Positions 50,474 to 56,417 of a stretch of 64,000 bases of DNA are shown piece after piece. The notes under the pieces were generated by a model, which was not told where the DNA came from, did not search any database, and was given only the letters and a program-made list of their open reading frames with translations. The translations under genes and the position numbers were made by a program. The stretch covers positions 1 to 64,000 of the forward strand of contig CM000434.1 of NCBI GenBank assembly GCA_000165345.1, in the 5' to 3' direction. Position 1 is the stretch's first letter. The number at the start of each line of letters is the position of its first letter.

Positions 50474-51847
50474 TTAATGATGATGATGACGTCCACCAGT
50501 TATTGTAGTTTGAATAATTTCTTGTTGTTGTGAAGCCATTGTTGGTTGTACAACAACATTTCTTATGCAAGTACCATTAGCGTTAAGAGTTGTTCCAGAT
50601 GGGCAATTCAATGTTGATGGAACGATTGATTTACATAATCCTTTATCACCATCAGTATATCCAACTGGACATCCTAATTCACCAGGAACAGTTTGGGTAT
50701 CAAAGCATTTCTTTCTTGGGACTTCCTGAATAACTGGAATTGGTTGTACATATGTTTGTTGAACATATGTTTGAATTGGATAGTATGCATTATGATGATG
50801 ATGATGTGAAACACCTCTCTTTCCTAATCTTCTAGTAATAATTCCAGCTGGCTGATTGAAATTCTGAGATCCTTGTTCATATACATATTGGCTTCCATAA
50901 CCAAGACTCTTAACAGATTGTTGTGGTGAGTTTCTGAGTGAATAGTATTTACCATCATAGAATTCATTTGTTGGCTTTGGGGTTGGGTTTGGACATTCCA
51001 ATTCTGCTGGAACTGTAATAACTTCAACACACTCTCCATTTGCGACCATTGAGCCATTAGCACATCCTAAAGTTGGTTCAGTTGTTGATGTATATAAACA
51101 TCCAAATCCTGTCAAACTTTTTACTGCTCCTTCTGGGCATATCATTTGTGCTGGAACTGACTCACTTCTTGAGCATGTTCTTGAAACAACAGCCTGTGGA
51201 ACAACATAGCTTGTTTGATGATGATGATGTCCATGTCCATGTCCATGATGTGAAGTTGTTGTATATCTAACTGCAGTTGCAGCTGGAGTGCAATCATATA
51301 AAACTTCTCTTACACATCTTTCATTACTAACTAAAGTGAAATCAGGTGATGGACAGGTACTAATTGGGGATACACTCTTTTGTAAGATACATTCATTTTG
51401 CATTTCATTTAAAACTCCTTGCATACATTTCTTGATTGGTGCAACAGTCTTTGAGCCACTGCACATTTGACCGTCAGTTAAAGTAAATCCTGATGGGCAT
51501 ACAGCAACTGGGTCGATCTCAACATTCTTTTGACACATATTTTCACCTACCAATGTATATTCCACTGGACATTTCATGATTGGGTTTGTTGTCTTCATAC
51601 AATTAAAATCGCTCATTAATTCTCCTCCATTCAAGCAGACTCTTTCTGGCATTATCTCCTCTCTAGCAACGCATTGTCTATTTGAATCCAAAGTATATCC
51701 TGTTGGACACACCATTGTTGGAACGTTGACTACGGAGACTGTTGAAACTGCTTGTTGTTGATGATGATGATGATGATCTCCAGCATAACAACTTAGTGGC
51801 AACATTGCCATCATAATAATTGTATTTATCTTTCTTAACGATATCAT
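50474..51847 (-). CDS. Cryptosporidium oocyst wall protein (COWP) family member, about 457 aa, with 8 type-I-like CPxG[YF]TL...C repeats and four His-rich tracts
   Basis: The track start at 51862 is a TTG. ATG at 51847 gives MISLRKINTIIMMAMLPLSCYA (signal peptide). Repeats: CPTGYTLDSNRQCV, CPVEYTLVGENMCQ, CPSGFTLTDGQMCS, CPSPDFTLVSNERCV, CPEGAVKSLTGFGCL, CANGSMVANGECV, CPVGYTDGDKGLCK, CPSGTTLNANGTCIR. His tracts: GDHHHHHQQQ, HHGHGHGHHHHQ, SHHHHHN, GGRHHHH at the end. Published chr6 annotation has two small COWP genes (COWP8/9) side by side in this neighbourhood (recalled from memory). Confidence 0.8.
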   Translation of the reverse strand: MISLRKINTIIMMAMLPLSCYAGDHHHHHQQQAVSTVSVVNVPTMVCPTGYTLDSNRQCVAREEIMPERVCLNGGELMSDFNCMKTTNPIMKCPVEYTLVGENMCQKNVEIDPVAVCPSGFTLTDGQMCSGSKTVAPIKKCMQGVLNEMQNECILQKSVSPISTCPSPDFTLVSNERCVREVLYDCTPAATAVRYTTTSHHGHGHGHHHHQTSYVVPQAVVSRTCSRSESVPAQMICPEGAVKSLTGFGCLYTSTTEPTLGCANGSMVANGECVEVITVPAELECPNPTPKPTNEFYDGKYYSLRNSPQQSVKSLGYGSQYVYEQGSQNFNQPAGIITRRLGKRGVSHHHHHNAYYPIQTYVQQTYVQPIPVIQEVPRKKCFDTQTVPGELGCPVGYTDGDKGLCKSIVPSTLNCPSGTTLNANGTCIRNVVVQPTMASQQQEIIQTTITGGRHHHH

Positions 51848-52140
51848 TTTTCTTTTAAACAAAAATTTTAAAAAAATTTTTCTTTATTGTGAATTCTTTC
51901 TTTATAACTAGATTTTATTAACAAATTAATTTAATTAAGACTGTTTAATACTAGTCAAAATTAAATTTATTTTAAAAATTAAATAAAAAAAAATTATTTT
52001 TATTTTTTTATTATTGTTATTTTATTTATTTAAGAAAATAATCAATAATAAAAAAAGTGACATAAATTTGTTTTATAACTACCATGTATCTGGTGTACTT
52101 CCTCTTATGACTAATTTCACATCATTTTTATCCACATGAA

Positions 52141-52150
52141 TGCATGCATG
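52141..52150. promoter_or_regulatory. TGCATGCATG, a GCATGCA-family apicomplexan promoter element about 290 bp upstream of the COWP gene. It is flanked by two copies of TCCACATGAAT (52131-52141 and 52224-52234).
   Basis: Direct reading. This motif family is known from Cryptosporidium, Toxoplasma and Plasmodium promoter surveys. Confidence 0.5.
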
Positions 52151-52447
52151 TAACGTGCACATCAAAATTTGCATACCGGTATTATGTTTTTTTTTGTTTA
52201 ATATTACTAATAATTACTAATTTGTCCACATGAATATTAATTATTATTGTTATTTAAATTAATAGTTACTAATATGAAATAATATACAAATGACGAATAA
52301 AAATTAATAGTAAAATTTGTAATTATTAGTAATGAATTAGTAATTATAATTAATTAAAAATAAAAAAAAAAAAAATACAAATTGAAATTTAAAGAGGAAA
52401 ATAAATACTGATAATGAGATTATATATATATCAATACAAATTTATTT

Positions 52448-55400
52448 TTAATTATTTTCCTTTTGAGGGTTATTCTTATCTAAATTAATGTTATTTAAAA
52501 ATATTCTTAATAACAATGGCATAGTCCATAAAGGTTTAATTAAATCTACTTCATGACACATTTTTTGTGAATAAGAAGGAACCACAGTTCTTCCAAATGA
52601 TTTCATTGAAAATATTCTTGTATTTGTAATGTTATATTTATCAATATTTTCAATTTTAAAATTACTAGTATTAAAGTAATCAAAATCAGGATATAAGTTA
52701 TCTTCAGTTGTGTTTTTAATTTCTAAATTCTCATCTTTCACATTATGTTCGGTAGATTCATGATTTATTGTATTATTTAATTCATTTATGAAAATTTCAT
52801 TATTAGATTGGTCCAACAATATTGAATTATTTTGATATTTTTCATCAATTTGTTGAACTTCTGGATTAGAATTATTTTTCATCTTTTCAGAAATTAATGA
52901 ATATAACTTAGTAATATTATATTCAAAAGGTCTGAATACATTTTCTGGAAATTTTGGAGGGCAATAGTAGTGAGTAAAAACTGTCTGCTTTGAAACACAA
53001 CGTGGGGGAGCCTTTCTAAAATGCTCTGGTGGCAAGAGTAATAAGGCTTCCTCATCTAACTTATAGCCTTTTGGACATTCAATGGTAAAATCTGTATAAC
53101 CCTTCATTTTACACGTATTAGTTGCTACTAATACGGTATTTTCAGGGCAAGATAGATATGGTTTTGCTGTAATGACCTTCAAACAAATAATTTTAATAAC
53201 ATAATCTGTTTTACCAATTATTGCATCATATAAACTTATTGGTGAAATAGGTAACTTTTTTTTCCCCTCTACATTTCGATTTATTAAATTAATTGATTCC
53301 AAATCTTCTATTAGTTGACGCCTTATAACTTCTTCAGAATTATTCTCATTACTTGTTTCATTTTTGATATTTGAATGCTCAATATTTGGAACTTGATTCA
53401 AAGTAATGAATTCAGTTATTACATTCTTTTTTGTACTTCCAAATGAAGGAATAATCGTTTCATTTTTCTCTAAATTTGTTTCCGTTTCATTCAACATACT
53501 AATATCAATGTTTTCCGAATCCATATCCTGAATATATTCAGGAAATAATGTATTCGAGATAGCAAGAGAATTATCAATTACTTCACTTGGATTAAATAAA
53601 GATTCTTTATCAATATTATCTATATCTTCCTTTGTTACAATATGAATTCCAGTTTTCTCAAAGTAATTTAATGGTTCTCTTAATGATATGAATGGAATCT
53701 CTTCTTTTGTTGTACACTTTGGTTGTAATGGCACTTTCATTACTTGTATACAAGTATCAAAAGGATTAATGAATTCGTGCCGGTATACTATAGGAGGATC
53801 ATTACCATTTGAAATATAAGCGTCATAAGAAACCGTACCTTTTGGGCATTTATAATCTACTACTACAACATCTTTGTACTCACAATAAGGTCTTGGACCT
53901 TTTTCAAACATCCATGAATGATTATAATCATATTTAAGGCTAAATGTACTATTTTGACAGAATGGAGCACCAATACCATTGTACTTAACCTCATCAGTTT
54001 CTTTCTTAAAGCATTTTATTTTTGTTTTAAAGTTTTGGAATTTTTTTGTAATTGATTTGCTTTGTATTCCCGATTCTGAATCATTCACTTTCCTTGTCAT
54101 TATTGGTTCTTCTTGGATAATCGGAGCATAATATTTATTAAAGTTTTCACTTGCTTCATTTAATTTTTCTTTTCTGTGTTCAACATCAGAAATATCCTTT
54201 TGGAAAAAATCCTCTTCTAATTGTGCTGTATATCCTTCCGGGCATTCATATTCTTTCACTACTTGATAAGCCATAATACATGTTTGCAAGTCATAGTAAA
54301 CACTTCCTTCAGCACATCCTGGAAATCCAGGTGCAAAAGTTTCGATTACACAAGTCTTTCTTGGTTCATTAAATACGAATGGCTCGTCACATTTTGGCAC
54401 TGAAGGCAAATACTTTCTTTGTTTAACATGGCAGCCTCCTCCACCTCTATGTGAACCCCATAACTTTGAGTGGGAATAGCTTAAAGGGCAAAATGCGACA
54501 GAGTCTGCATAAGTAATTGAAACACAACTTTTTATTTCATGGTCATACACTGAATTCAGGCCATTTGAAGGACAAATACCAATAATATCTAGTTCTGCTC
54601 CTGTTGGTCTGCTACAATAGGTTGCATTGTATGGCTGAATATTCAATAATGAGAATGTAGGTAGCATATAATCTTCCCTAGATATATTCAAATTTTTAAT
54701 AAGCTCATCTATTAGCATCAATTCTGCACTATCTCTTTCATTTGCGCATAGATTATATGTATTCTCATCCTTAGTATTCAAATTACTTAATACCATTTTT
54801 GGTATTAAAGTTATCAAGCTCCAAAATCCTTCAATTGAAAATCTTACCTTATTTTTCAGATTAATGTTATAATCATTGATTTTACTATTATTCCCACTAA
54901 AGTCTATTTCTTTCCAAGAATCTGAGTTTAATGCAGTATAATTCAACCAAAATTCACTATTATTCGACAATTTCTGATAATCGTATTCTGGGATTGATTT
55001 CCTCCATGGAGTAATATCCATTGGAACTCTATAAATACATTGTAATAAGCCATTCAAGGACCTGATTACTACATTACTTAATTGAGGAGCCAATTTTTCC
55101 AATAAATTATCGTCATCTGTATTTTCTTTTGTCTGATTTAATAATTTGGTTTCATTCAAATTACTTGTCGCATTACTTAAGTTTTCTTCATTCTCATTTT
55201 CTTTAATTTTTAATTCATTAGTACTTTCCACGTCATCTTTTTTATCCACATCAAATTCTTGTAATGCATGCATATTATCGAGAGGGGTCTGTAGATTCAA
55301 ATTTTGAAGCTCATTAATAGAGTTTGAATCATTTAAAAAAATTGAATTATTGTTAAATTGATAGGTTTCTGTGTTATTAATATTTATATCAGTATTAGTT

Positions 55401-55999
55401 TCATTTCCAAATAGTTTATCAAGTATTTTTAAAGTAGATATTGACCAATCACAGTTTGGAGGCAAATCAGGGATTGAAAAATTTGAATAATAAACAAACT
55501 CATATGAATCGTTATCTTTAGATGTTTCTGTCAAATCATTATTATCCATGTACTTCTTTTTAATTTTTTTAAAATCTATTCTACATTGGCAAGAACTTAT
55601 ATTTTTGTATTCTATTTCAAAGGGATATAAAATTGGGTTGCTTTGAATTATTTTGTTTGCAAGTATTAATCTTAGAGTATGAGTTAATGAAAATGGAGCA
55701 TTTTCAAATGAAGCTTTTGATCTTTGAATGATATTTCCATTATTCTCAACCAGATTAGAGAGACTGTTTTTCCCTTCTTGATTATTTATTGAATTTGCAA
55801 AAGAAGCTGGAAGCTTTTGTGCAGAGTAAATATTTGAATTGGAAATTGGTTTAAATGAAGGTATTGAACCTCCATCCGTATATGATGTACCACCAACCTG
55901 AATTGAAAGTCTGCGTAAGTTACTACTTATATTACATTGAGAAATATTTATTGAATTAAGAACAAATAATATTAGAATTATAAGTATTAACCCATTCAT
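52448..55999 (-). CDS. Large secreted Cys-motif protein (1183 aa), COWP-like, with Asn-rich low-complexity spacers
   Basis: ATG at 55999 verified. Signal peptide MNGLILIILILFVLNSINISQC. Scattered CP-x-G-type modules: CPSNGLNSVYDHEIKSC, CDEPFVFNEPRKTC, CAEGSVYYDLQTC, ECPEGYTAQLEED, KCPKGTVSYDAY, SCPENTVLVATNTCKMKGYTDFTIECPKGYKLDEE, YCPPKFPENVF. The call rests on motif class only. Confidence 0.6.
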   Translation of the reverse strand: MNGLILIILILFVLNSINISQCNISSNLRRLSIQVGGTSYTDGGSIPSFKPISNSNIYSAQKLPASFANSINNQEGKNSLSNLVENNGNIIQRSKASFENAPFSLTHTLRLILANKIIQSNPILYPFEIEYKNISSCQCRIDFKKIKKKYMDNNDLTETSKDNDSYEFVYYSNFSIPDLPPNCDWSISTLKILDKLFGNETNTDININNTETYQFNNNSIFLNDSNSINELQNLNLQTPLDNMHALQEFDVDKKDDVESTNELKIKENENEENLSNATSNLNETKLLNQTKENTDDDNLLEKLAPQLSNVVIRSLNGLLQCIYRVPMDITPWRKSIPEYDYQKLSNNSEFWLNYTALNSDSWKEIDFSGNNSKINDYNINLKNKVRFSIEGFWSLITLIPKMVLSNLNTKDENTYNLCANERDSAELMLIDELIKNLNISREDYMLPTFSLLNIQPYNATYCSRPTGAELDIIGICPSNGLNSVYDHEIKSCVSITYADSVAFCPLSYSHSKLWGSHRGGGGCHVKQRKYLPSVPKCDEPFVFNEPRKTCVIETFAPGFPGCAEGSVYYDLQTCIMAYQVVKEYECPEGYTAQLEEDFFQKDISDVEHRKEKLNEASENFNKYYAPIIQEEPIMTRKVNDSESGIQSKSITKKFQNFKTKIKCFKKETDEVKYNGIGAPFCQNSTFSLKYDYNHSWMFEKGPRPYCEYKDVVVVDYKCPKGTVSYDAYISNGNDPPIVYRHEFINPFDTCIQVMKVPLQPKCTTKEEIPFISLREPLNYFEKTGIHIVTKEDIDNIDKESLFNPSEVIDNSLAISNTLFPEYIQDMDSENIDISMLNETETNLEKNETIIPSFGSTKKNVITEFITLNQVPNIEHSNIKNETSNENNSEEVIRRQLIEDLESINLINRNVEGKKKLPISPISLYDAIIGKTDYVIKIICLKVITAKPYLSCPENTVLVATNTCKMKGYTDFTIECPKGYKLDEEALLLLPPEHFRKAPPRCVSKQTVFTHYYCPPKFPENVFRPFEYNITKLYSLISEKMKNNSNPEVQQIDEKYQNNSILLDQSNNEIFINELNNTINHESTEHNVKDENLEIKNTTEDNLYPDFDYFNTSNFKIENIDKYNITNTRIFSMKSFGRTVVPSYSQKMCHEVDLIKPLWTMPLLLRIFLNNINLDKNNPQKENN

Positions 56000-56417
56000 A
56001 AAAGCTCATTTAATTTGTTAAAAAAAAAAAAATAAAATAAAATAATACCTTAAAAAACCTTAAACATAAATATATTAAACAAACAAATATCTTTAAATTT
56101 CCTCAAATATTTTAGGAAATAATTATAATAAATTTTTTAATGATAAATAATTCCTTTGTTTACTTTTTATTATATATAAATACATATATTAAGATAATTT
56201 TTACTTGCAAAAAAAAAAATAATTCAACGAATTCTATAAAATTTTCATCTTTAATTCATATCAAAAATAAATTTTAATTATAATATTATTTGACAATTTT
56301 TATTGAGTATTTTCTTCTTAATACAATTTTTAATAAAGGTTAATTTTTATTCTGTGTGCATTAAAAGTTGTTTTATATGCTCGGATTATAGTCGAAATTA
56401 TAAAAAAAATAATGAGT

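What the first reader, a model, noticed from the sequence alone, without database searches (positions are those of the whole stretch)
50474..55999. Tandem pair of oocyst-wall-protein-like genes, with His-rich tracts in the smaller one and a TGCATGCATG element in its promoter
The 457-aa protein carries eight clean CPxG[YF]TL…C type-I COWP repeats plus four histidine tracts (H5, H2GHGHGH4, H5, C-terminal H4). His clusters in a wall structural protein suggest metal- or pH-dependent cross-linking. The upstream 1183-aa protein uses looser versions of the same Cys module between Asn-rich spacers. The only TGCATGCATG in the window, flanked by two TCCACATGAAT copies, lies about 290 bp upstream of the smaller gene. 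It may be a late (oocyst-stage) promoter code distinct from the E2F-like element used elsewhere.
Basis: partly seen in the sequence, partly recalled or inferred. Interest (0 to 1): 0.55.

Follow-up and report, generated by a model that had tools for sequence, protein, structure and literature searches.

The report
Known Cryptosporidium oocyst-wall genes COWP8 and COWP9
The two genes are the already named and studied oocyst wall proteins 8 and 9 of Cryptosporidium parvum, and the DNA motifs upstream of the smaller gene belong to a largely published promoter signature of female-gamete genes, so the finding is correct in outline but not new.

Summary
The window is Cryptosporidium parvum chromosome 6. 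The 457-aa and 1183-aa proteins are letter-for-letter identical to "oocyst wall protein 8" (cgd6_200) and "oocyst wall protein 9" (cgd6_210) of C. parvum Iowa II.

The four His tracts, the Asn-rich COWP9 with looser Cys modules, the single TGCATGCATG and the two TCCACATGAAT copies are all present. "Eight clean CPxG[YF]TL repeats" is overstated. Only two are strict and five relaxed. There are ten two-Cys modules with about 12-residue Cys spacing.

The promoter idea is right but mostly published. TGCATGCA is the AP2_1 site. The other motif read on the gene strand, ATGTGGA(C/T)A, matches the "unknown" motif reported upstream of late COWPs in 2013. In 2024, TGCATGYR was reported enriched in 65 macrogamont promoters, a set that includes this one.

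I add three points. TGCATGCA is the only 8-mer shared by all six orthologous promoters. ATGTGGA follows it at fixed spacing in five species. ATGTGGA and a third motif, CCGGTAT, are strongly enriched in the published 65-promoter set.

The His tracts are conserved in position across the genus and lie only in predicted disordered linkers. Their function is untested, and a cowp8 knockout has no wall phenotype.

Verdict: already known, low interest.

The parts
50474..51847 (-). COWP8 (cgd6_200) coding sequence: 457 aa plus stop, no intron.
   Evidence: ORF. The protein is an exact match to EAK87345.1 / Q5CPJ0, 'oocyst wall protein 8 [C. parvum Iowa II]'. G452 is the position quoted for C. parvum in PMC12548878.
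52448..55999 (-). COWP9 (cgd6_210) coding sequence: 1183 aa plus stop.
   Evidence: ORF. The protein is an exact match to EAK87346.1 / Q5CPI9, 'oocyst wall protein 9'. K1180 is the position quoted in PMC12548878. Orthologues sit at the same syntenic place in 4 species, with 28 of 29 Cys invariant.
51848..52447 (-). Intergenic region between COWP9 and COWP8 (600 nt), which is the COWP8 promoter.
   Evidence: The visible part of the 599-nt 'cgd6_200 promoter' listed in S6 of PMC11078545 matches it. Six-species alignment is A1.
52141..52148 (.). TGCATGCA palindrome, the AP2_1 / TGCATGYR site.
   Evidence: It is unique among the window's noncoding sequence. It is the only 8-mer shared by all six orthologous intergenic regions, and chance presence per region is 0.0007-0.0026. 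It forms the longest invariant block of alignment A1.
52131..52138 (-). Proximal CATGTGGA. ATGTGGATA on the gene strand matches A[T/A]G[T/A]GGA.A. It lies 3 nt downstream of TGCATGCA.
   Evidence: The start-to-start spacing of 11 nt is kept in the window, C. canis, the Logan contig, C. felis and C. xiaoi. C. muris has ATATAGA instead.
52225..52232 (-). Distal CATGTGGA (ATGTGGACA on the gene strand).
   Evidence: A distal ATGTGGACA is also present 85-101 nt upstream of the proximal copy in C. canis, the Logan contig and C. felis.
52173..52182 (.). ATACCGGTAT palindrome, a possible third promoter element.
   Evidence: It is the only copy in the window's 24.7 kb of noncoding sequence. ACCGGTA is conserved in the window, C. 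canis, the Logan contig and C. felis. CCGGTAT occurs 12 times in the 65 macrogamont promoters, against 0 for four control 7-mers of the same composition.
52018..52061 (-). A 44-nt block, GTCACTTTTTTTATTATTGATTATTTTCTTAAATAAATAAAATA, nearly identical in four species. It is a candidate core promoter or 5'UTR.
   Evidence: Alignment A1, columns about 433-478. Function not tested.
51761..51775 (-). His tract 1 (aa 25-29, H5), directly after the predicted signal peptide.
   Evidence: Conserved in position in 11 orthologues. AF2 pLDDT is below 50.
51218..51250 (-). His tract 2 (aa 200-210, HHGHGHGHHHH), in the linker between Cys blocks 1 and 2.
   Evidence: Its position is conserved, but its length and composition vary, even among C. 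hominis isolates. pLDDT is below 50.
50792..50806 (-). His tract 3 (aa 348-352, H5), in the Tyr/Gln/Pro-rich linker 2, next to the conserved RRLGKRG.
50477..50488 (-). His tract 4 (aa 454-457, H4), at the extreme C-terminus.
   Evidence: H455-H457 are invariant in 11 orthologues.
54242..54616 (-). COWP9 Cys cluster 1 (aa 462-586).
   Evidence: Cys spacing is 12-19 residues. The Cys are invariant in 5 species and per-column conservation is 0.73-0.81.
53714..53884 (-). COWP9 Cys cluster 2 (aa 706-762).
52961..53185 (-). COWP9 Cys cluster 3 (aa 939-1013), the segment most similar to COWP8.
   Evidence: BLASTP of COWP8 aa 83-128 against COWP9 aa 939-986 gives 31% identity and E = 7e-4.

Best explanation
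The locus is cgd6_210-cgd6_200 of Cryptosporidium parvum chromosome 6. It encodes oocyst wall proteins 9 and 8.

SHOWN here:
- Both proteins match the named proteins exactly.
- Both carry the family hallmark, a Cys about every 12 residues.
- The order MCM6 / Beclin / G-patch / COWP9 / COWP8 / PH-protein is kept across the genus.
- COWP8 and COWP9 are old, distant paralogues, not a recent duplication.

REPORTED by others: both proteins localise to the oocyst wall. COWP8 is made only in macrogamonts, stored in wall-forming bodies and secreted after fertilisation. COWP8 is dispensable for wall shape, strength and transmission.

COWP8 anatomy. It has a signal peptide followed by three all-beta, disulfide-rich blocks of two-Cys modules. 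These are separated and capped by four Cys-free, predicted-disordered segments, which hold all 22 histidines.

INFERRED for the protein. The Cys blocks are rigid bricks cross-linked by disulfides. The His tracts, with a side-chain pKa near 6, act as pH- or metal-sensitive contacts. They would keep the protein unassembled in the wall-forming body and promote association after secretion. They may be redundant with His-rich parts of other COWPs.

Promoter, SHOWN here. About 290-330 nt upstream of the COWP8 ATG lies a compact module: ATACCGGTAT, then 24 nt, then TGCATGCA, then 3 nt, then ATGTGGATA. A second ATGTGGACA lies 94 nt further upstream. TGCATGCA is conserved in six species. ATGTGGA is conserved at fixed spacing in five. 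All three motifs are enriched in the published set of 65 co-regulated macrogamont promoters.

INFERRED for the promoter. A female-specific ApiAP2 that binds TGCATGCA in vitro switches the gene on. cgd2_3490 is the published candidate. It would act together with one or two unidentified factors that read CATGTGGA and CCGGTAT. This would explain why COWP8 is the most female-enriched transcript. COWP9 lacks these sites and is female-specific but weakly expressed.
For: Identity: exact matches to EAK87345.1 and EAK87346.1. The residue numbers G452 and K1180 agree with PMC12548878. Synteny holds in C. canis, C. felis, C. xiaoi and C. muris.

Family hallmark: COWP8 has 25 Cys, most spaced 12 apart, and COWP9 has 29 Cys. 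All 25 COWP8 Cys are invariant in 11 orthologues. 28 of 29 COWP9 Cys are invariant in five species. COWP8 against COWP9 gives only 29 bits, E = 7e-4.

Structure: the AF2 model has beta blocks at about aa 39-190, 220-288 and 378-440 with pLDDT 65-80. All four His tracts fall in segments with pLDDT below 50. All 22 His lie outside the Cys blocks.

His tracts: conserved in position down to C. muris, which is 50% identical.

Promoter conservation:
- TGCATGCA is the only 8-mer shared by all six intergenic regions.
- It is the longest invariant block in alignment A1.
- ATGTGGA starts 11 nt after it in five species.

Promoter enrichment: counts are over the visible 22.3 kb of the 65 macrogamont promoters of PMC11078545 S6.
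- ATGTGGA occurs 18 times against 0.68 expected.
- CCGGTAT occurs 12 times against 0.21 expected.
- TGCATGCA occurs 30 times against 0.08 expected.
- Ten control 7-mers of the same composition each gave 0.
- The same order and orientation, with a 3- or 5-nt gap, occurs in cgd7_5050, cgd2_3970, cgd8_4290 and cgd6_3280.

Literature:
- AP2_1-like sites plus A[T/A]G[T/A]GGA.A lie upstream of late 'Class II' COWPs, including COWP8 (PMC3734150).
- TGCATG(T/C)(G/A) is enriched in macrogamont promoters, with cgd2_3490 as the proposed regulator (PMC11078545).
- Female-versus-asexual log2 fold change is 13.47 for cgd6_200 and 5.81 for cgd6_210.
- Wall localisation and the knockout phenotype are in PMC12548878.
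Against: - No binding, reporter or mutagenesis data exist for this promoter.
- AP2-F, another TGCAT-binding female factor, does not control oocyst-wall genes (PMC10233709). The responsible factor is therefore not settled.
- At least four C. parvum AP2 domains bind TGCAT (PMC4117751).
- C. muris lacks ATGTGGA and CCGGTAT at the aligned positions. C. xiaoi lacks CCGGTAT and the distal ATGTGGA.
- My enrichment counts use promoter cells cut at about 389 nt. The background is base composition plus this one window, not all C. parvum promoters.
- For the His tracts, the cowp8 knockout shows normal morphology and mechanical strength (PMC12548878). All His codons are CAT, and the tract length varies within C. 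hominis. Both facts fit slippage-prone low complexity.
- The AF2 model is shallow: 6 sequences, mean pLDDT 58.5, pTM 0.26.
Confidence: 0.85

Rival explanations
1. The His tracts are functionally neutral low-complexity runs. They would be created and resized by slippage of (CAT)n in an AT-rich genome, and tolerated because they sit in disordered linkers.
For: - All 22 His codons are CAT, in uninterrupted runs.
- Tract length and composition vary between species and between C. hominis isolates, for example 455 versus 457 aa.
- The tracts lie in segments with pLDDT below 50.
- The cowp8 knockout has no wall phenotype (PMC12548878).
Against: - All four tracts are kept at the same four positions in 11 orthologues, down to C. 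muris at 50% identity.
- Individual His columns are invariant (H26, H28, H200, H208, H210, H349, H350, H455-457), while the surrounding linker sequence diverges.
- No His occurs anywhere else in the protein.
- His-richness is a recognised trait of the family: 'Cys- and His-rich OWPs' (PMC3760245), and His runs between type II repeats (PMC4514997).
Confidence: 0.25
2. ATGTGGA is not an independent site. It would be a variant or extension of the AP2 site, TGCATGTG(GA), read by the same TGCAT-binding AP2 protein. On this view the 'code' is a cluster of AP2_1 sites of different strength.
For: - The published degenerate motif TGCATG(T/C)(G/A) includes TGCATGTG.
- 6 of the 18 ATGTGGA copies in the 65 promoters are GCATGTGGA, and 14 of 18 are preceded by C.
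- No AP2 domain with a TGTGG specificity is reported in PMC4117751.
Against: - 7 of 18 copies are TCATGTGGA, without the G of the AP2 core. Both COWP8 copies are of this kind.
- The GGA(C/T)A extension is conserved.
- There is a strand bias of 18 forward to 7 reverse, although the AP2_1 core is palindromic.
- The 2013 authors judged the motif unrelated to any of their 25 motifs, which include the AP2_1 family.
Confidence: 0.3
3. The TGCATGCATG element is a chance occurrence, or it belongs to the COWP9 3' end as a UGCAUG-type RNA element in the 3'UTR rather than to the COWP8 promoter.
For: - It lies 300 nt downstream of the COWP9 stop codon, and the 3' end of that mRNA is not mapped here.
- A second TGCATGCA, with a TCCACAT 20 nt away, sits inside the COWP9 coding sequence at 55245-55272. 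This shows that chance co-occurrence is possible.
Against: - It is conserved in all six species, while the rest of the spacer is barely alignable.
- The same motif is enriched upstream of 65 co-regulated female genes, whatever the neighbouring gene is.
- AP2 domains bind it as DNA in vitro.
- Its distance to the COWP9 stop varies from 145 to 312 nt.
Confidence: 0.04

Closest known systems
Cryptosporidium oocyst wall protein family COWP1-9 (Spano 1997; Templeton 2004), specifically COWP8 / cgd6_200 and COWP9 / cgd6_210
   Same: The sequences are identical to the named proteins. Shared features:
- a signal peptide
- a Cys every 10-12 residues
- female-specific expression
- wall localisation (PMC12548878)
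   Different: Nothing differs; these are the same genes. COWP8 has no COWP1-style type II repeats. Its His runs sit in Cys-free linkers and at both mature termini instead.
AP2_1 / TGCATGCA ApiAP2 site. It is bound in vitro by cgd2_3490, cgd1_3520, cgd8_3230 and cgd5_4250, and by Plasmodium AP2-Sp. The macrogamont motif TGCATG(T/C)(G/A) is from Hasan 2024.
   Same: The octamer matches exactly and lies upstream of a macrogamont-specific gene. This very promoter was part of the published 65-gene discovery set.
   Different: New here are its conservation across six Cryptosporidium species and its fixed pairing with ATGTGGA. Which AP2 acts in vivo is unknown. AP2-F appears not to.
The 'unknown motif' 5'-A[T/A]G[T/A]GGA.A-3', reported upstream of Class II (late) COWP genes (Oberstaller 2013, PMC3734150)
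   Same: Both copies in the COWP8 promoter (ATGTGGACA and ATGTGGATA) fit the consensus exactly. COWP8 is a Class II gene.
   Different: It was published only for the handful of late COWPs. My counts suggest it is a general macrogamont-promoter motif: 18 forward-strand copies in 65 promoters. Most copies are CATGTGGA(C/T)A, often 3-5 nt downstream of TGCATGCA.
His-rich structural proteins that assemble by pH or metal switching, such as the His-rich flanks of mussel byssal preCols and the Nereis jaw protein Nvjp-1. This is an analogy drawn from general knowledge.
   Same: His clusters sit in flexible segments of a secreted structural protein. The protein is stored in a secretory granule before it is deposited outside the cell.
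   Different: There is no sequence relationship. No metal or pH data exist for COWP8. The resemblance is a lead only.
Pfam PF15888 FOG_N (Folded gastrulation N-terminus) and cEGF
   Same: COWP8 aa 406-445 scores 35.3 bits against FOG_N (cut-off 27). The cEGF match is weak. The orthologues carry the same precomputed FOG_N hit.
   Different: The match covers about 40 of 111 profile positions and reflects Cys spacing. COWP9 has no Pfam hit. No solved structure is related by sequence or fold.

Membership tests
COWP family (Cryptosporidium oocyst wall proteins) | Sequence identity or orthology to a named COWP | tested here: met
   Exact matches to 'oocyst wall protein 8' (EAK87345.1) and 'oocyst wall protein 9' (EAK87346.1) of C. 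parvum Iowa II. Orthologues are named OWP8 and OWP9 in C. canis, C. xiaoi, C. hominis and C. tyzzeri.
COWP family (Cryptosporidium oocyst wall proteins) | A Cys at every 10th-12th residue (type I repeat pattern) | tested here: met
   In COWP8, 20 of the 24 gaps between successive Cys are 10-13 residues. In COWP9 the 12-residue spacing holds within three clusters. The Cys are invariant across orthologues.
COWP family (Cryptosporidium oocyst wall proteins) | N-terminal signal peptide and no transmembrane domain | tested here: inconclusive
   The N-termini are hydrophobic by inspection: MISLRKINTIIMMAMLPLSCYAG|D in COWP8 and MNGLILIILILFVLNSINISQC in COWP9. No signal-peptide predictor was available. 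PMC12548878 states that all COWPs have one.
COWP family (Cryptosporidium oocyst wall proteins) | Expression in macrogamonts and localisation to the oocyst wall | not testable with these tools
   Reported in the literature. COWP8 and COWP9 fusion proteins localise to the wall, and COWP8 is expressed only in macrogamonts (PMC12548878). Female-versus-asexual log2 fold change is 13.47 and 5.81 (PMC11078545 S3).
COWP1-type 'type II' His-rich repeats | Shorter six-Cys repeats alternating with His runs | tested here: not met
   COWP8's His runs lie in Cys-free linkers of 26-95 residues and at the termini, not between short six-Cys repeats. COWP9 has no His run.
AP2_1 (TGCATGCA) cis-element of macrogamont promoters | Exact core sequence upstream of the gene | tested here: met
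   TGCATGCA lies at 52141-52148, starting 301 nt upstream of the ATG.
AP2_1 (TGCATGCA) cis-element of macrogamont promoters | Evolutionary conservation in orthologous promoters | tested here: met
   It is present in six of six species. It is the only shared 8-mer and forms the longest invariant block.
AP2_1 (TGCATGCA) cis-element of macrogamont promoters | The gene is co-regulated with the macrogamont programme | not testable with these tools
   Reported in the literature. cgd6_200 is one of the 65 genes that the differentiation inhibitors lower and the inducer raises (PMC11078545 S6).
AP2_1 (TGCATGCA) cis-element of macrogamont promoters | Occupancy by an ApiAP2 in vivo, and a requirement for expression | not testable with these tools
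   Only in-vitro protein-binding microarray data exist, for cgd2_3490, cgd1_3520 and others (PMC4117751).
Oberstaller 2013 'unknown' Class II COWP motif A[T/A]G[T/A]GGA.A | Match to the consensus upstream of a Class II COWP | tested here: met
   ATGTGGACA at -384 and ATGTGGATA at -290 both fit the consensus. COWP8 is named as Class II.

The most novel reading that the evidence does not exclude
The COWP8 promoter may be the clearest example of a three-part cis-regulatory grammar for Cryptosporidium female gametes: ATACCGGTAT, TGCATGCA and CATGTGGA(C/T)A.

- The last two form a composite with fixed order, orientation and spacing (a 3-5 nt gap), conserved across intestinal Cryptosporidium species.
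- Only TGCATGCA has a known binder.
- CATGTGGA was noted once, in 2013, as an unexplained motif of a few COWP genes.
- I did not find CCGGTAT in the motif catalogues I could read.
- If true, two unidentified DNA-binding factors would cooperate with a female ApiAP2 to set the very high, strictly female expression of genes such as COWP8.
Probability: 0.4. Interest if true: 0.4.

Novelty: already known. Interest (0 to 1): 0.2.

Why it matters
The oocyst wall is what makes Cryptosporidium resistant to chlorine and lets it spread through water. COWP8 is one of the wall's most abundant proteins and the most female-specific transcript in the published table.

The genes, their adjacency, their expression, their localisation and a knockout are already in the literature. 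So is the main promoter motif. The finding therefore adds no new biology.

Two small things could still be useful to specialists.
- The compact, genus-conserved promoter module at 52131-52182 is a ready target for reporter mutagenesis and for finding the factors that read CATGTGGA and CCGGTAT.
- The strictly positional conservation of His tracts in disordered linkers is a specific, testable handle on how the wall assembles. The recent COWP papers I read do not discuss it.

Tried and rejected
1. I tried to fetch COWP paralogue loci from other species, to test the motifs upstream of other COWPs.
- A sliding two-unit alignment misaligned.
- A clean two-unit profile, A6, found only 15 word-sharing candidates and no hit. 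That used one protein search for nothing.
- I used the published promoter set of PMC11078545 S6 instead.

2. Foldseek of the COWP8 AF2 model against the PDB gave no match with E <= 0.001 (best E = 0.7). A profile search of PDB sequences gave nothing better than E = 0.99. No solved relative exists. The model's global geometry is poor (pTM 0.26).

3. Templeton 2004 (PMC321576), the paper that defines COWP2-9, is not held. Its content is cited only second-hand, through other papers.

4. A literature search for the motif strings with match='anywhere' returned thousands of irrelevant primer-containing papers. 'Not described elsewhere' for CCGGTAT therefore rests only on the papers I read.

5. The COWP9 upstream region (56000-56417) has no conserved footprint and none of the three motifs. 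I rejected the idea that the tandem genes share one promoter code.

6. I considered and rejected a recent tandem duplication. COWP8 and COWP9 share only 29 bits, and both are conserved as separate genes down to C. muris.

7. The second TGCATGCA/TCCACAT pair, inside the COWP9 coding sequence, is most likely chance. It lies in the least conserved part of the protein and has a different spacing.

Full report
WHAT IS THERE

The region holds two intron-less ORFs on the minus strand. One runs 50474-51847 and encodes 457 aa from its ATG. The other runs 52448-55999 and encodes 1183 aa. A 600-nt spacer separates them.

An exact-sequence look-up shows that both proteins are already in public databases. 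The smaller is 'oocyst wall protein 8 [Cryptosporidium parvum Iowa II]' (EAK87345.1, UniProt Q5CPJ0). The larger is 'oocyst wall protein 9' (EAK87346.1, Q5CPI9). The residue numbers that a 2025 CRISPR study quotes for C. parvum, G452 in COWP8 and K1180 in COWP9, fit this sequence (PMC12548878). That paper also states that cowp9 is the gene directly upstream of cowp8.

The window is therefore C. parvum chromosome 6, and the 'tandem pair' is cgd6_210 / cgd6_200. The gene order MCM6 - Beclin/APG6 - G-patch - COWP9 - COWP8 - PH-domain protein is the same in C. canis, C. felis, C. xiaoi and C. muris.

CHECK OF THE OBSERVATION

The His tracts are exactly as described: H5 at aa 25-29, HHGHGHGHHHH at 200-210, H5 at 348-352 and a C-terminal H4.

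The repeat count is overstated.
- The strict pattern CPxG[YF]TL occurs twice.
- A relaxed CPxx[YFT]T[LD] occurs five times.
- The real regularity is 25 cysteines, most spaced 12 residues apart, forming ten C-x(10-12)-C modules.

COWP9 has 29 Cys and 134 Asn. Its 12-residue spacing is limited to three clusters, at aa 462-586, 706-762 and 939-1013. Those clusters are the conserved parts of the protein, and the Asn-rich spacers are not.

COWP8 and COWP9 are only distantly similar. The best local alignment scores 29 bits with E = 7e-4. This is an old paralogue pair, not a recent duplication.

TGCATGCATG occurs once in the window, at 52141-52150, against 0.05 copies expected. The two exact TCCACATGAAT copies are at 52131-52141 and 52225-52235. 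On the gene strand the arrangement reads: ATTCATGTGGAC, then 83 nt, then CATGCATGCA-TTCATGTGGATA.

THE PROTEINS

A COWP8 alignment of 11 orthologues, down to 50% identity, keeps all 25 Cys invariant. It also keeps all four His tracts at the same four positions, although their exact length and composition drift, even among C. hominis isolates.

An AlphaFold2 model built on a shallow alignment has mean pLDDT 58.5. It gives three all-beta blocks, at about aa 39-190, 220-288 and 378-440, with pLDDT 65-80. Every His tract falls in a segment with pLDDT below 50.

All 22 histidines lie outside the Cys blocks, and all are encoded by CAT.

No solved structure is related by fold or by sequence. Pfam gives only a short FOG_N match, driven by Cys spacing, and nothing for COWP9.

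Published work describes the family as 'Cys- and His-rich' (PMC3760245). It describes His runs between the type II repeats of COWP1 (PMC4514997). The 2025 COWP paper does not mention histidine at all.

That paper shows the following.
- All COWPs localise to the wall.
- COWP8 is made only in macrogamonts and is stored in puncta consistent with wall-forming bodies.
- Parasites lacking cowp8 make oocysts of normal shape and mechanical strength that transmit in mice.

The structural role is therefore established. A specific role for the His tracts is not. The most likely reading is pH- or metal-sensitive contacts in flexible linkers, by analogy with other His-rich secreted structural proteins. That is inference. 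Neutral (CAT)n slippage is a real rival.

THE PROMOTER

I aligned the COWP9-COWP8 spacer from six species. Most of it is barely alignable; mean column identity is 52%. The longest invariant run is ATGCATGCA.

TGCATGCA is the only 8-mer present in all six spacers. The chance of finding it in any one spacer is 0.0007-0.0026 by shuffling.

ATGTGGA starts exactly 11 nt after TGCATGCA in the window, C. canis, a Logan contig, C. felis and C. xiaoi. C. muris has ATATAGA at that place. A second ATGTGGACA lies 85-101 nt further upstream in four of the six. ACCGGTATGCAAA is conserved in four.

By contrast, the COWP9 upstream region has no conserved footprint and none of these motifs.

Neither COWP upstream region has an E2F site. 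All seven TGGCGCCA sites in the window lie in other intergenic regions.

WHAT WAS ALREADY KNOWN ABOUT THESE MOTIFS

- TGCATGCA is the AP2_1 site. It is bound in vitro by cgd2_3490 and three other C. parvum AP2 domains.
- Oberstaller et al. 2013 split the COWPs into an early class with E2F motifs and a late 'Class II' that includes COWP8. Class II upstream regions carry AP2_1-like motifs and an 'unknown motif' A[T/A]G[T/A]GGA.A. Both COWP8 copies (ATGTGGACA, ATGTGGATA) fit that consensus.
- Hasan et al. 2024 found TGCATG(T/C)(G/A) enriched in the promoters of 65 genes. Macrogamont-differentiation inhibitors lower these genes and an inducer raises them. The authors proposed cgd2_3490 as the regulator.
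- Their S6 file lists cgd6_200 with a 599-nt promoter whose visible part matches this window.
- Their S3 table is sorted by female-versus-asexual log2 fold change. It ends its 'female specific' block with cgd6_200 at 13.47. cgd6_210 has 5.81.
- Ablation of AP2-F, another TGCAT binder, leaves oocyst-wall genes unchanged.

Its own refutation criteria are not met. Expression is not restricted to asexual stages; it is female-specific. The motifs are reported upstream of other late COWPs.

WHAT I CAN ADD

I used the promoter sequences printed in S6 of Hasan et al. That is 65 promoters, each cut at about 389 nt, 22,324 nt in all. The text-search tool gave the following counts.

- ATGTGGA: 18 copies on the gene strand and 7 on the opposite strand. 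14 of the 18 are CATGTGGA.
- Six 7-mers with the same base composition: 0 copies each.
- Four near-variants: 0 to 2 copies.
- CCGGTAT and ATACCGG: 12 copies each, against 0 for four controls.
- Composition-based expectations: 0.68, 0.21 and 0.08 for ATGTGGA, CCGGTAT and TGCATGCA. The observed counts are 18, 12 and 30.

In the window's own 24.7 kb of noncoding DNA, TGCATGCA and ATACCGGTAT occur only in the COWP8 promoter.

Several other macrogamont promoters show TGCATGCA followed by ATGTGGA in the same order and orientation. The gap is 3 nt in cgd7_5050, as in COWP8. It is 5 nt in cgd2_3970, cgd8_4290 and cgd6_3280. CCGGTAT is often nearby.

So the element is not COWP-specific. It looks like part of a general female-gamete promoter grammar.

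CCGG-containing motifs are absent from the 25-motif catalogue of 2013. They are also absent from the 2014 AP2 binding survey.

There are caveats. The promoter cells are truncated. My background is base composition plus one window, not all promoters. I could not search the literature for these strings effectively.

VERDICT

The genes are the well-known COWP8 and COWP9. Their stage of expression, their localisation and a knockout are published, and the core of the promoter idea is published too.

The residual novelty is modest. It consists of genus-wide conservation, the fixed spacing of the TGCATGCA-ATGTGGA composite, a possible third motif (CCGGTAT), and the strictly linker-confined, positionally conserved His tracts.

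Novelty class: already known. Interest: low.

Noticed in passing
window 52173-52182: The palindrome ATACCGGTAT in the COWP8 promoter is the only copy in the window's noncoding DNA. CCGGTAT occurs 12 times in the 65 published macrogamont promoters, against 0 for four control 7-mers of the same composition. It is often followed by A/T-rich sequence such as TGCAAA or ATA. It is not in the 2013 list of 25 C. parvum motifs.
   Followed up: partly
window 55245-55272 (inside the COWP9 CDS, about aa 243-252): A second TGCATGCA (55265-55272) has a TCCACAT 20 nt away (55245-55251). The order and orientation match the promoter composite, but the spacing is 21 nt instead of 11. It lies in the least conserved part of COWP9 and is probably chance.
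   Followed up: partly
window 52018-52061 (minus strand): A 44-nt block, GTCACTTTTTTTATTATTGATTATTTTCTTAAATAAATAAAATA, lies about 170-215 nt upstream of the COWP8 ATG. It is almost identical in C. parvum, C. canis, the Logan contig and C. felis. It could be the core promoter, the transcription start or the 5'UTR.
   Followed up: no
window 50720-50990 (COWP8 aa 286-380): Linker 2 of COWP8 is rich in Tyr (10), Gln (11) and Pro (10). It holds a conserved dibasic stretch, TRRLGKRG, right before the third His tract. That looks like a possible proprotein-convertase site. A female-specific S8 subtilisin (cgd6_3730) is in the same co-regulated gene set. Tyr-rich wall proteins are processed and cross-linked in Eimeria. 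This is pure speculation here.
   Followed up: no
window 6131, 10162, 17418, 24212, 47493, 57286, 62554: There are seven exact copies of the E2F-type palindrome TGGCGCCA. All are intergenic, and none lies upstream of COWP8 or COWP9. This fits the known over-representation of this site in C. parvum noncoding DNA.
   Followed up: partly
window 50474-55999: An early chromosome-6 annotation, CAD98622.1 ('oocyst wall protein precursor, possible', 1761 aa), is placed in the same 90% cluster as both COWP8 and COWP9. It apparently fused the two genes into one model.
   Followed up: no
window 50477-51847 (COWP8 aa 406-445): Pfam FOG_N (Folded gastrulation N-terminus, PF15888) matches COWP8 above its gathering threshold (35.3 bits against 27). 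The orthologues carry the same precomputed hit. The match probably reflects Cys spacing, but it is the only Pfam family that this protein passes.
   Followed up: no
window 51218-51250 (COWP8 aa 200-210): The (CAT/GGA)n His-Gly tract varies in length between C. hominis isolates (455 versus 457 aa) and between species. It could serve as a small typing marker.
   Followed up: partly
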